Part shown: one piece after another, positions 40,702-46,700 of the stretch | Position numbering within the stretch: the stretch's first letter is position 1 | Layout: each line of letters opens with the position of its first letter | Assembly (NCBI GenBank): GCA_051362555.1 | Contig: CM120640.1 | Location: 71,278,788-71,342,787 of the forward strand | Source of the DNA: Lingula anatina | Taxonomy: Eukaryota; Animalia; Brachiopoda | Direction of reading: 5' to 3' | DNA: 64,000 nt | Made by a program: the position numbers and the translations under genes | The notes under the pieces: model-generated | The model's database searches: none | What the model was told of the DNA's origin: nothing | Seen by the model: only the letters and a program-made list of their open reading frames with translations

Positions 40702-43700
40702 ATGTCTGGCACTGTGGACATAGATGCAGACTGTATCAACACCTGGCTGCAGTCAACTATCAAGTGGAATGCCGGCCAAGAACTGCGCTCATTTAGTAAA
40801 ACAGAAACAGCCAACTTTCTGCACAGCCTGAGAGAAAAACTGAAGCAACTCTTCTCTAGGAATGTTAGTAAATATTGTCTGTATTCTTTGTTTTGATTGT
40901 CTAGAAATGTTAGCAAATATTGCCTGTATTTTTTGTTTGATTTTCAAAAGGTGTAAGTATTATACATGTATACTGCCTGTATTTTGCATTTTGAATGTGG
41001 GTCAAAACACGGTATTTGAAATGTCTCTGACGGGACATTTTAGAGACAATTTTAAAAATTACAGTTGGTAAATGATCCACATGGTTACTTTTAAATACAT
41101 TTTTATTTAGCTGGACCATAAAGGATTATGTAAAACAAGCAGCTAATTTGTATTGAAATAAATGTGGGAATGACAATCACTTAAAGGTCTGTCTCTGACG
41201 GGACATTTTTGACCCCTGTATTTTTTTACTAAAACTCCAATGCAAAATTCTCTTTGAAATTTCATTTAATCAAGACTTTTGTAATTCATATTGCAAGGTA
41301 CAAGTCTTGGGAAGCAATTAATGCACAAACAGGCCAGTTTTGTTTACTTTCCTTGGCAGCATGGACTAGAAATATTAGAAATATATGTTGCCTGTATTCG
41401 GTGTTTTGATTGTCTATATATATTAATTAGTATTAAATATTACCTGTATTCTTTGTATTGATTAAAACAGGCTTTACATTTCTGATATATTGTAAATTAC
41501 AATGAAGTGAAATGATTTAAGCAGTAAATATAAAAAATGGACATAGTTCATTCGTTTTGACAAATGATATGTTTTAAAATATTTTAAAAGCCACTTTTTG
41601 ATACACTGTCTTGAATTGCTACAGCATATCTTTATCCATATTTCTCTCCCTCTCTCTTCTGCAGGGCAGCCTCCTGGATGTGCTGGAAAGTTGTCCCAAT
41701 GTTGGGCAGTTGCTGGGTAGAATGTGTGGCAACAGCCTAATACTGTCAGACAGACAGCTCTACAGGGCACTCATCACCTGTGTGCTGCTCTTCAATGTGG
41801 ACAGTCCACAGATGGCTCTAGAGGTCAAGGCTAAGCAGTGGGCACTGGTCAGTAGCATTAGTTAGGGTTGGTTGGTTGGTTGAGACAGTACTTGGAAACT
41901 AATGAGATATACATGTACTATATAATACTATAACATTGTATTTGTACAGGCTCTAAATCCAAAGGCTTTAAAATCAGAAGTAAAGAAAAGAAGACCAGTG
42001 ATTTATCAAACTGATATAGATATCTTCCTGTTCCCAGGCCCAGGTGAGGAGTACAGTGAGTTTCTCTGTGGGAGACATGAAGTCCACATTGATGTCTTCA
42101 GTAGGCTTTAGACAGCAGGAACTGTGGGAGGAACTTCTGGCACAGGTGGGCAGACAGCATATACAGCTCCAACATTTGAAAATGGTCATCTTTTTATGTA
42201 TAGACTCTGCTATTTTTTATCAGACGTATTAGTTTAAAAACCTAGTATTACTGCAATCCATAGTATTTTTAGCATGTAATTACTTGTACCAATATAAATT
42301 TCCAAAGTAGCTAGGAATTTGATATTCTCATATTGCACTGAACTTGCTGTTGTAAGTTTTATATTTCTACTGTCAGATTATTCTGTGGACTCCTTTAGGT
42401 ACTCAAGGACGTCACCAAGCTTCTGACAGTGCCACTGAGAAAGTGGAGCTCAGAAAACAACTATTTCCTTCCTGTCTCAGTTCCCGCCAGGCTGACAGGC
42501 CCCATGCTGCACAGGGTGCTCAGTGTCACCAGTAGTATGCCAGTGACTCCTGCACTGTCTGCCTTGGTTGGTGAGATAGTGAAGTGGGTGTGTCACACAC
42601 AGGGGGATGACCCCAGGCTCCAGCAGTTCATGGAAGACATTACAATTAAGACATCATGCACTTTTAATTCATCATATACAGGTACTTTGTACCCCATATC
42701 TCTCTCTCTCTCTCTCTCTCTCTCTCTCTCTCTCTCTCTCTCTCTCTCTCTCTCTCTCTCTCTCTCTCTCTCTCTCTCTCTCTCTCTCTCTCTCTCTCTC
42801 TCTCTCTCTCTCACTCACTCAGATTTATGCTTGATAACATATTGCCATATTAGAACATAATCAGTAACATTACCTCCTCATATATATATATATATATATA
42901 TATATATATATATATATATATATATATATATATATATATATATATATATATATATATATATAATTATCAGCTGTTTTAGATCACATACTACCAGTAGAGG
43001 CCAGGAGTGTCCTGTGGACCAGTTATATACCAAGTATTGAGTTGATATGTGTTTGTTTTAGATCACATACTACCAGTAGAGGTCAGGAGTGTCCTGTGGA
43101 CCAGTTATATACCAAGTATTGAGTTGATATGTGTTTGTTTTAGATCACATACTACCAGTAGAGGCCAGGAGTGTCCTGTGGACCAGTTATATACCAAGTA
43201 TTGAGTTGATATGTGTTTGTTTTAGGTCACATACTACCAGTAGAGGGCAGGAGTGTCCTGTGGACCAGTTATATACCAAGTATTGAGTTGATATGTGTTT
43301 GTTTTAGGTCACATACTCCCAGTAGAGGCCAGGAGTGTCCTGTGGACCAGTTATATACCAAGTATTGAGTTGATATGTGTTTGTTTTAGATCACATACTA
43401 CCAGTAGAGGCCAGGAGTGTCCTGTGGACCAGTTATATACCAAGTATTGAGTTGATATGTGTTTGTTTTAGATCACATACTACCAGTAGAGGGCAGGAGT
43501 GTCCTGTGGACCAGTTATATACCAAATATTCAGTTGATATGTGTTTGTTTTAGATCACATACTACCAGTAGAGGGCAGGAGTGTCCTGTGGACCAGTTAT
43601 ATACCAAGTATTGAGTTGATATGTGTTTGTTTTAGATCACATACTACCAGTAGAAGGCAGGAGTGTCCTGTGGACCAGTTATATACCAAGTATTGAGTTG

Positions 43701-46700
43701 ATATGTGTTTGTTTTAGATCACATACTACCAGTAGAGGCCAGGAGTGTCCTGTGGACCAGTTATATACCAAGTATTCAGTTGATATGTGTTTGTTTTAGG
43801 TCACATACTACCAGTAGAGGGCAGGAGTGTCCTGTGGACCAGTTATATACCAAGTATTGAGTTGATATGTGTTTGTTTTAGATCACATACTACCAGTAGA
43901 GGGCAGGAGTGTCCTGTGGACCAGTTATATACCAAGTATTGAGTTGATATGTGTTTGTTTTAGATCACATACTACCAGTAGAGGGCAGGAGTGTCCTGTG
44001 GACCAGTTATATACCAAGTATTGAGTTGATATGTGTTTGTTTTAGATCACATACTACCAGTAGAGGGCAGGAGTGTCCTGTGGACCAGTTATATACCAAG
44101 TATTGAGTTGATATGTGTTTGTTTTAGATCACATACTACCAGTAGAGGGCAGGAGTGTCCTGTGGACCAGTTATATACCAAGTATTGAGTTGATATGTGT
44201 TTGTTTTAGGTCACATACTACCAGTAGAGGGCAGGAGTGTCCTGTGGACCAGTTATATACCAAGTATTGAGTTGATATGTGTTTGTTTTAGATCACATAC
44301 TACCAGTAGAGGTCAGGTGTGTCCTGTGGACCAGTTATATACCAAGTATTGAGTTGATATGTGTTTGTTTTAGATCACATACTACCAGTAGAGGGCAGGA
44401 GTGTCCTGTGGACCAGTTATATACCAAGTATTGAGTTGATATGTGTTTGTTTTAGATCACATACTACCAGTAGAGGGCAGGAGTGTCCTGTGGACCAGTT
44501 ATATACCAAGTATTGAGTTGGAGCTACTCACTGTGGTTGATATGTGTTTGTCAAAACAGCCCAGTGAAATGAAGGAAATCATCAACAACAGAGGATTGGT
44601 AAGTTTACATGTGTTTTTCACATCTTTTTTTTACATTAACCCTTTTTTATTCTTTGATGATATTTTTTATATCTCTTTTTCATTTCTTATCAGAAGCTTT
44701 TTAAATTCAAAATATTTCTTTCAGGCACAAGCCTGTGCTGAAAACTTCTCCTTATTTGAAGCTGTAGGGACTATGTTGACTGAACTCCTCCAGAGCAGCT
44801 GTCACTGTGGACACCTGGTACAGGTGATAGGAGTCTTTCACCACTGTATACAGGACCATGTCTACCAGACAAGACAAGATGTAAGTAGTATATAACACTG
44901 GGGACACCTGGTACAGGTGATAGGAGTCCTTCACCACTGTATACAGGACCATGTCTACCAGACAAGACAAGATGTAAGTAGTATATAACACTGTGGACAC
45001 CTGGTACAGGTGATAGGAGTCCTTCACCACTGTATACAGGACCACGTCTACCAGACAAGACAAGATGTAAGTAGTATATAACACTGTATACAGGACCATG
45101 TCTACCAGACAAGACAAGATGTAAGTAGTATATAACACTATGGACACCTGGTACAGGTGATAGGAGTCCTTCACCACTGTATACAGGACCACGTCTACCA
45201 GACAAGACAAGATGTAAGTAGTATATAACACTGTATACAGGACCATGTCCACCAGACAAGACAAGATGTAAGTAGTATATAACACTGTGGACACCTGGTA
45301 CAGGTGATAGGAGTCCTTCACCACTGTATACAGGACCATGTCTAACAGACAAGACAAGATGTAGGTAGTATATATAACACTGTATAAAGGACCATGTCTA
45401 CCAGACAAGACAAGATGTAAGTAGTATATAACACTGTCACTGTGATATCCTATACCATTACATGTGATCTTTTTACCATGTATCTTGTGTTTTCAGCCTC
45501 CTCTGTCTCTGCTGAATTTCTACCCGCTAAACCTGAGAGCTCTAGTCAGTGTGCTGCAGATATGCCCTAAAGGTACATCTTAAGGAAGTCATTTTTGGAT
45601 TTTAGCATTTTATAAATTCATTAACAATTAAAACTCTAAAGACAGTGGTTCCAGTGTTAGGATATCATTGGTGTTTGTAAGGTTGGGGCTAGAAAGTACT
45701 GGGGCTAGAAAGTATTGTATAAGTGGATGTTCATGTTATTTCAGATCTTTCCACAGATGGTTGTTGTAGTTGTATAAAACAAATAGAAAACCAAATACAT
45801 CTTCTGCTGGAGCAGGACAACCTTGTCTCTCCATATGACCTTTGGCTGCTGCTAATACAGTTCAACACATGGTATTACACGTGTTTAGAGATGCTGCTTA
45901 TAGCAGAAAAAGATGTGAGTCAGTCAGTGAATAGTTCTGGTTTTCTTGAAATAGTGTATTGAAAATTTGGTTTGCAAGATATCAGTCAACTTTCATAGAT
46001 TTCAATTGGTTTCAAGTCTCAGGCATTTAGAGGAATAGCATGCATTTCTTGTGTATGATAACTGGATTGTGCGTTGTGTTTAGATCATTCCTGTTGCACT
46101 GGCTCTCATCTACTGGTATATCTTCCCAGACACTCCAGAACAACAGGAGCAGGTCAAGGTGAGGAAAGTCTTACTACCTGGTTTTATACCCAGTAGACAT
46201 GATGGATTTCGGGAAAGATTTTTGAACAATTTTAAGAAACCTCATTTATTTATTTATTTATTTATTTATCAAAATACTCATCTTATATTATATTATATTG
46301 TATTGTATTGTATTGTATTGTATTGTATTGTATTGTATTGTATTGTATTGTATTGTATTGTATTGTATTACATTATATTATTTCAGGGTCATATCAAAAC
46401 CTTAACAGTAAGTCTCCGTGGTTTACTGTGTAAAAGCACCCTGTGTCCTCAGGACCTGGAGTATGCCCTACTACATGCCCAGCCTGGACCCCATAGTCCA
46501 CTGCCTCAGGCCACTCAGACCAGTGTCCACTCTGTGATGACCCAGCTACTCTCTGTGTTCTTACTTCACGCCAAGGGAACAGGCGGCTCTTACACACACA
46601 TACTTCAGATGGTGAGTGGAGATTACCGTCCACAGTCTGGGTCAATGTAATATTGGACAAACAGACTTATAGGAGGGGTGGGTTAAGGGTCAAAATTAGA

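What the first reader, a model, noticed from the sequence alone, without database searches (positions are those of the whole stretch)
42972..44598. FANCC exon preceded by 18 near-identical decoy acceptors, with a working acceptor built from exon sequence
Seen: the 82-bp unit is tttag + exon nt 1-65 + atatgtgtttgt. The last piece is copied from further inside the same exon (GTT GAT ATG TGT TTG T at about 44536-44551). The unit therefore implies two microhomology jumps: gttg skipping 19 nt, then tgt returning to the acceptor. The apparently ancestral acceptor (cagctgttttag, ending 42979) is now 1476 nt upstream. Only the last AG (44455) gives an open frame. Any earlier AG shifts frame at the next unit and hits TGA. 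Inference: the spliceosome must bypass 18 equivalent acceptors, presumably by exon definition from the strong gtaagt donor at 44599, and copy number could affect FANCC dosage.
Basis: partly seen in the sequence, partly recalled or inferred. Interest (0 to 1): 0.8.

Follow-up and report, generated by a model that had tools for sequence, protein, structure and literature searches.

The report
Spare splice acceptors in lampshell FANCC
In a brachiopod's FANCC DNA-repair gene, the start of one exon and its splice signal are copied 18 times inside the intron before it; the RNA reads that can be placed use the last copy, and the copy number appears to differ between animals, so this is most likely tolerated duplication debris of a kind already described in lancelets.

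Summary
The array is real: 18 units of 82 bp (42980-44455) precede the 143-nt fifth coding exon of a FANCC-family gene, whose protein matches an NCBI Lingula anatina record. The unit anatomy, both microhomologies and the frame argument hold. Two corrections: the 18 upstream AGs are 17 copies plus the ancestral site, and 2 of 18 stop at TAG. Unit depth is about 2 to 16 times unique-exon depth in four DNA runs, which suggests variable copy number. RNA reads join exon 4 to a unit start, and about 8 run on into exon-specific sequence; none is seen entering a second unit. About 9 sense-strand poly(A) reads come from inside the array; unspliced RNA and decoy use cannot be told apart. A mirror array of 8 donors follows the next exon, and two more donor arrays lie in a neighbouring ankyrin gene. 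This fits the 'mirage' minisatellites of lancelets (PMC3087553). The scan has flagged similar acceptor arrays in other genomes. Exon definition and a dosage effect remain untested. Verdict: new member of a known kind.

The parts
40702..40863 (+). FANCC coding exon 1 (from ATG)
   Evidence: Exon model identical to P0001 over 263 of 263 aa; PF02106 hit E 0.023
40855..40942 (+). Older, decayed 45-bp two-copy repeat spanning the exon-1 donor (GT at 40864)
   Evidence: TRF; context; not tested in RNA
41665..41847 (+). FANCC exon 2
   Evidence: PF02106 E 2e-10; matches P0001
42038..42145 (+). FANCC exon 3
   Evidence: Matches P0001
42399..42681 (+). FANCC exon 4 (283 nt, ends in phase 1)
   Evidence: 100% identical to P0001; its last bases appear as loose ends of RNA reads at the exon-5 start
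42699..42962 (.). (TC)61 and (AT)41 microsatellites in intron 4; the AT run lies just before the ancestral acceptor and is absent from the X10 contig
   Evidence: TRF; X10 loose end matches 42856-42878 and then joins the acceptor
42963..42979 (+). Ancestral acceptor (AG ends 42979), now the first decoy
   Evidence: Sequence; 8-nt shared suffix with the units; X10 contig
42980..44455 (+). 18 units of 82 bp: exon-5 nt 1-65, 12 nt from exon-5 nt 85-96, last 5 intron nt. Provides 17 further decoy AGs and the working AG
   Evidence: multi-copy in four DNA runs
44436..44455 (+). Working acceptor: exon-derived T-rich tract and a candidate branch motif with A at -17 (motif consensus recalled, not tested)
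   Evidence: RNA loose ends at 44454/44457
44456..44598 (+). FANCC exon 5 (143 nt, phase 1 to 0). 44521-44539 are the 19 nt the units lack; 44540-44551 is the source of the unit tail
   Evidence: Open frame; 6 RNA reads join 44598 to 44725, GT..AG
44725..44880 (+). FANCC exon 6 (156 nt)
   Evidence: RNA joints; 9 reads join 44880 to exon 7
44803..45437 (+). Mirror array: 8 units (93, 54 and one 95 bp) repeating the end of exon 6 and its donor; only the first donor (44881) keeps the frame open
   Evidence: RNA and DNA
45497..45572 (+). FANCC exon 7
   Evidence: RNA loose ends match its first 30 nt; exons 1-7 give 1111 nt with no stop

Best explanation
This is an 82-bp minisatellite, likely variable in copy number, that repeats the intron-4/exon-5 boundary of a brachiopod FANCC gene, and it is most likely tolerated duplication debris (a 'mirage'), not a regulator. 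Shown: the unit anatomy, the frame logic, a multi-copy state in four DNA runs, and use of the last AG by the reads that can be placed. Inferred origin: a tandem duplication between short TGT matches, with a 19-nt loss between GTTG matches, in one template-switch event or two steps; then gain and loss of units by unequal exchange. Inferred splicing: the spliceosome prefers the AG nearest the exon-5 donor and the exon-only sequence (44521-44598), which no decoy has behind it. Any product of an upstream AG carries a stop within 47-54 codons and would be removed by nonsense-mediated decay. The array survives because the extra copies fall into the intron.
For: X18: 7 of 9 laid reads join exon 4 to a unit start, depth 4 continues through the exon-only part, and no array reads occur. 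X13: depth 5 over 44505-44538; read accounting (22 = 5 + 1 + 6 + 10, my inference from the tables) puts 3-4 exon-4-joined reads there. X12: 7 of 24 reads are exon-4-joined and at least 1 passes 44532. Junction-unitig to unique-exon depth ratios: X1 14, X3 4.4-6, X10 1.7-1.9, X4 3.6-16. In the mirror array, 9 of 22 X13 reads splice at 44880 to exon 7 and none reads through. Four more splice-site-spanning repeats lie in the window, two in FANCC and two on ankyrin-repeat exons. Lancelet mirages share this layout, vary in length and leave splicing intact (PMC3087553, passages).
Against: Array-internal reads exist in poly(A) RNA: 3 of 24 in X12 and 7 joints (depth 6) among 22 in X13, all in the same orientation as the exon reads. 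The same two runs show no reads in intron 5 or through the exon-6 donor. For 18 units this is about 4-11% of molecules pooled, and more if those animals carry fewer units. X18, the cleanest run, shares alleles with low-copy X10 (G at 44456, C at 44526), so it may not face many decoys. Read numbers are small, the tables are not read-level, and the RNA donors' array lengths are unknown. The tool itself warns that contig depth is no copy number.
Confidence: 0.75

Rival explanations
1. The decoys leak. Upstream AGs, mainly the nearest ones (exons of 225 and 307 nt), or retention of intron 4, divert a share of transcripts into decay. That share would grow with copy number, so the array would act as a heritable dosage variant of FANCC.
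For: About 9 sense array reads in two poly(A) runs, with 0 in intron 5 and 0 through the donor array. If these were general pre-mRNA at 18 units, about 3.9 donor-array reads would be expected, P(0) about 0.02 (assuming the window's array lengths). In human IFI6 (6-16) and CBS the nearest pseudo-donors are used (PMC1557585, Introduction).
Against: No read is seen joining exon 4 to a unit and continuing into a second unit, though fewer than one such read is expected at this depth. X15 and X18 show the reverse pattern (donor-array reads, no acceptor-array reads), as expected if unspliced background simply scales with each animal's array length. X10, with about 2 acceptor units, has about 11 donor units. 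No link between copy number and expression was measured.
Confidence: 0.17
2. Stepwise (recursive) splicing: exon 4 joins an early AG, and the join is re-used as a donor to reach the last AG.
For: Units 4, 5, 11 and 16 begin with GT after the AG. In X10 all four unitigs over that position carry G.
Against: 14 of 18 units, and the ancestral site in this haplotype, begin with AT and give no donor. The GT version matches the donor consensus poorly (consensus recalled).
Confidence: 0.03
3. The array is an assembly artefact, or its copy number is inflated.
For: The best DNA holder X1 may be the source of the assembly. Its ratio (14) is below 18. The NCBI protein stops inside the repeated part.
Against: Units carry distinct variants (12 of 18 differ from the consensus). 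The same variant letters at unit positions 1, 11 and 22 appear in X4 DNA and X13 RNA. Multi-copy depth is seen in runs from four studies.
Confidence: 0.02

Closest known systems
'Mirage' minisatellites of lancelets: globin BflGb6 (acceptor side), BflGb9, Adh3 (PMC3087553, passages seen); troponin C and PGBD5 (PMC3902484, one passage seen)
   Same: Tandem copies of an intron 3' end plus an exon 5' part. Units keep their splice signals, haplotypes differ in unit number (6 and 3 in BflGb6), normal splicing is kept, and both exon ends can be hit.
   Different: This case is in a brachiopod, with more units (18) that are more alike (98%). The unit is rearranged by a 19-nt internal loss and holds only 5-8 intron bases, so the working acceptor's tract is exon-derived. 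An acceptor array and a donor array flank one two-exon block.
Human junction minisatellites: F7 intron 7 (37 bp), IFI6/6-16, CBS intron 13, LMNB2, PDGF intron 4 (PMC1557585; abstract, Introduction and Discussion read)
   Same: A variable repeat whose end unit spans an exon boundary; the exon-proximal site wins. The array at 44803-45437 is the direct equivalent.
   Different: All of those repeat donors. The finding repeats an acceptor, where the winning site is the last one transcribed, so the 5'-to-3' scanning proposed for F7 cannot by itself explain it.
Intron gain by tandem duplication (Rogers model as discussed in PMC3087553; PMC3265369, search listing and start of abstract only)
   Same: Duplicated exon sequence is spliced out as intron.
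   Different: No new intron arises here; an existing intron grows and its acceptor is replaced by a copy.

Membership tests
Mirage minisatellite (as described in PMC3087553) | Tandem repeats that span an exon-intron boundary | tested here: met
   18 units holding the last intron bases and exon nt 1-65
Mirage minisatellite (as described in PMC3087553) | Units keep AG/GT splice signals | tested here: met
   19 of 19 sites keep the AG; 17 of 18 upstream sites equal the working site at -20..-1
Mirage minisatellite (as described in PMC3087553) | Regular splicing is kept | tested here: met
   About 8 exon-4-joined reads run into exon-only sequence in 3 of the 4 RNA runs laid (X15 has no reads on exon 5)
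Mirage minisatellite (as described in PMC3087553) | No aberrant transcripts from the copies | tested here: inconclusive
   About 9 array-internal sense reads in X12 and X13; origin not resolved
Mirage minisatellite (as described in PMC3087553) | Length differs between haplotypes | tested here: met
   Depth ratios of about 14, 5, 2 and 4-16 in four DNA runs; rough, unitig depth only
Mirage minisatellite (as described in PMC3087553) | Concerted evolution of units | tested here: inconclusive
   98% identity; C at position 22 is confined to units 1-10; all X10 unitigs carry G at position 1; no tree built
Mirage minisatellite (as described in PMC3087553) | Somatic instability (reported for Adh3) | not testable with these tools
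   Needs single-molecule typing of tissues from one animal
FANCC (PF02106) | Pfam score above the curated cut-off | tested here: met
   P0001 68.4 bits against 25; best PDB hit FANCC 7kzp_C, E 5e-06. Exons 4, 5 and 6 alone gave no Pfam hit; the 45744-45914 frame gave E 0.0089
FANCC (PF02106) | One-to-one orthology and a role in the FA core complex | not tested
   A search for longer homologues found none among 3293 candidates; no tree or reciprocal search made

The most novel reading that the evidence does not exclude
The array is a heritable dial and a mutation store for a DNA-repair gene. Unit number (about 2 to 18) sets how much FANCC RNA is lost to decoy splicing or intron retention. Unequal exchange also feeds unit variants into the coding head of exon 5: the first-base A/G difference (Asp or Gly at the junction codon) occurs both among units and in the working exon of other animals.
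Probability: 0.12. Interest if true: 0.6.

Novelty: new member of a known kind. Interest (0 to 1): 0.27.

Why it matters
As a class it is known, and the scan has met it in other invertebrate genomes. This case adds a brachiopod example; my literature searches found no report of one. It shows that 5-8 true intron bases plus exon-derived T-rich sequence suffice as an acceptor here. It offers a natural allelic series (about 2 to 18 nearly identical acceptors) for testing how the last of many equal AGs is chosen, the case that 5'-to-3' scanning does not explain. Such arrays may also cut gene models short: the NCBI protein is marked partial and ends inside the repeated part.

Tried and rejected
No whole genome is held for this window, so no genome-wide census or flanking check was possible. 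No RNA holder was listed by the index, which is no evidence either way; I laid raw-read runs added by species label, 4 of 9 RNA runs and 4 of 10 DNA holders. Searching for full-length homologues of P0001 found none, so exon 5 is placed by frame and RNA, not by homology. An undeleted 101-bp unit was looked for as a 'goes back 101' joint in four DNA runs and none is listed; contigs drop rare forms, so one-step and two-step origins both stand. The idea that the exon gained 19 nt after the array arose is rejected: without those 19 nt the exon leaves frame. The idea of units as micro-exons is rejected: any donor inside a unit would leave an intron under 82 nt, and 82 is not a multiple of 3. The only long inverted repeats among the 25 shown for 40600-47300 are the AT run (82 pairs found), so no pairing that masks the decoys was seen, and I did not fold the array. 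Arrays at 25777, 29067 and 33945 could not be tied to exon ends. Paper searches gave nothing relevant. Look-ups of earlier findings near this place and for look-alikes were empty. I read no supplementary files; Additional file 4 of PMC3087553 aligns the BflGb6 units and could show whether their acceptors are also exon-derived.
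Full report
Observation. TRF reports an 82-bp array at 42972-44520 with 18.9 copies, 98% matches and no indels. A script finds 19 AG sites 82 nt apart, from 42979 to 44455, and 18 full units. Each unit is exon-5 nt 1-65, a 12-nt piece also found at 44540-44551, and the last five intron bases. The join skips 19 nt between two GTTG, and the unit end shares 8 nt with the first acceptor. 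Six of 18 units equal the consensus; the rest differ at one to three of seven variable positions. With exon 4 ending in phase 1, only the last AG gives an open frame; 16 of 18 others stop at TGA after 47 codons and 2 stop at TAG after 54.

The gene. The frame at 42399-42680 is 100% identical to P0001, named by NCBI as a partial uncharacterised Lingula anatina protein. P0001 scores 68.4 bits on Fanconi_C against a cut-off of 25, and its best PDB hit is FANCC. My exon model equals P0001 over all 263 residues, and exons 1-7 give 1111 nt without a stop. P0001 ends inside the repeated head of exon 5. Orthology was not tested by a tree, and no longer homologue was found.

DNA in other samples. I laid 4 of 10 DNA holders, from four studies, on the end of the last unit and exons 5-6. 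The unitig over the unit junction is 14 times deeper than the unique exon part in X1, 4.4-6 times in X3, 1.7-1.9 times in X10, and 3.6-16 times in X4, depending on how split unitigs are counted. The tool warns that contig depth is no copy number, and X1 may be the assembly's own source, so these are rough. They rule out a single copy and suggest variable length. One X10 contig runs from intron sequence matching 42856-42878, without the AT run, straight into the acceptor. This supports the first AG as the ancestral one. No 101-bp undeleted unit is listed in any run.

RNA. I laid 4 of 9 RNA runs, read at about 6-25% of each. X18: 7 of 9 reads join exon 4 to a unit start, depth 4 continues through the exon-only part, and there are no array reads. 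X12: of 24 reads, 7 join exon 4, 6 join exons 5 and 6 (GT..AG, 126 nt), 4 end in exon-6 letters and 3 go back 82. X13: of 22 reads, 3 are listed as exon-4-joined, depth is 5 over 44505-44538, 7 joints go back 82 (depth 6) and 9 join 44880 to exon 7. X15: none of 6 reads lies on exon 5. By adding up the tables (my inference, not read-level data), about 8 exon-4-joined reads pass into exon-only sequence and the array reads carry no exon-4 part. So the last AG is the main site in steady-state RNA.

Against a fully silent array. The roughly 9 array reads lie in the same orientation as the exon reads, and X12 and X13 show no reads in intron 5 or through the exon-6 donor. For 18 units they equal about 4-11% of molecules pooled, more for shorter arrays. 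General pre-mRNA would predict about 3.9 donor-array reads, P(0) about 0.02, if those animals had the window's array lengths. But X15 (4 joints) and X18 (2 reads) show donor-array RNA and no acceptor-array RNA, and X10, which shares alleles with X18, has a short acceptor array and a long donor array. Background that scales with each animal's array length would explain both patterns. X18 may also face few decoys, which weakens it as a test. Decoy use and retention are unresolved.

Surroundings. A mirror array at 44803-45437 repeats the end of exon 6 with 8 donors; only the first keeps the frame open. A decayed 45-bp pair spans the exon-1 donor. On the minus strand, arrays at 55031-55187 and 55784-55871 repeat the donors of two ankyrin-repeat exons, with 4 and 3 donor-like sites. 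Five splice-site-spanning repeats in 64 kb suggest a general tendency of this genome, not a FANCC device; enrichment was not tested.

Mechanism. The likely origin is a tandem duplication between short TGT matches, with the 19-nt loss in the same event or later, followed by unequal exchange. Because the unit starts only 5-8 nt before the AG, the working acceptor must draw its tract from exon sequence. That tract is 67% pyrimidine at -20..-3, within the 67-94% range of the gene's other acceptors, and holds a branch-like motif with A at -17 (consensus recalled). Three decoys equal the working site over -82..+65, so the choice must rest on what lies downstream: the donor 143 nt away and the exon-only sequence. 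Exon definition is the likely route but is inferred. Nonsense-mediated decay (established knowledge) would hide leaks.

Comparison. PMC3087553 (passages) describes tandem copies of an intron 3' end plus exon 5' part in lancelet BflGb6. It names them mirages, and reports 6 and 3 units in two haplotypes and normal splicing. PMC3902484 (one passage) adds troponin C and PGBD5. PMC1557585 (abstract, Introduction, Discussion) covers human donor-side cases: the exon-proximal site wins in F7, LMNB2 and PDGF, and the nearest pseudo-sites leak in IFI6 and CBS. The globin paper first appeared in my own search, but the mirage lead came from earlier scan notes and I then checked it in the papers. Those notes list similar arrays in other genomes; they are unchecked and are not used as support.

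Verdict. Real, correctly described, and a new member of a known kind. Its extras are a rearranged unit, paired arrays around two exons, apparent copy-number variation and a small unresolved amount of array RNA. The dosage and variant-store reading stays open at about 12%. Interest 0.27.

Noticed in passing
window 44803-45437: Donor-side mirage after FANCC exon 6 with mixed 93- and 54-bp units. Depth suggests about 8 donors in X1, 4-5 in X3 and 11 in X10, where the unit is about 101 bp.
   Followed up: yes
window 55031-55187 and 55784-55871 (minus strand): 24-bp and 22-bp arrays that repeat the last exon bases and the donor of two ankyrin-repeat exons.
   Followed up: partly
window 40855-40942 and about 41366-41465: Decayed 45-bp copies spanning the FANCC exon-1 donor, with further degenerate look-alikes later in intron 1.
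   Followed up: partly
window 44456, 44466, 44477: Variant letters seen among the window's units also appear in X4 DNA and in X12/X13 RNA. G at the first exon base is in the working exon of X18 and in all X10 unitigs, changing the junction codon from Asp to Gly.
   Followed up: partly
window 44521-44539: The 19 nt lost from the units hold a close match to a branch-site motif (consensus recalled), which would have sat about 27 nt before the AG in an undeleted 101-bp unit.
   Followed up: no
window 40702-47100: A FANCC-family gene in a brachiopod. The NCBI record is partial and uncharacterised, while the window appears to hold the later exons too (weak PF02106 hit at 45744-45914).
   Followed up: partly
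window 48070-50610 (minus strand): 846-codon stop-free frame with an HSF-type DNA-binding domain (E 8e-09) and an in-frame 33-bp coding repeat at 48463-48644.
   Followed up: no
window 18465-20675 (+), 22344-23564 (-), 51073-52353 (+): Long stop-free frames of 736, 406 and 426 codons with no convincing Pfam match.
   Followed up: no
window 27018-28708 and 35707-36021 (minus strand): WD40-repeat exons and a RING-finger exon; 38-bp and 46-bp arrays at 25777-26071 and 29067-29390 lie nearby and could not be tied to exon ends.
   Followed up: partly
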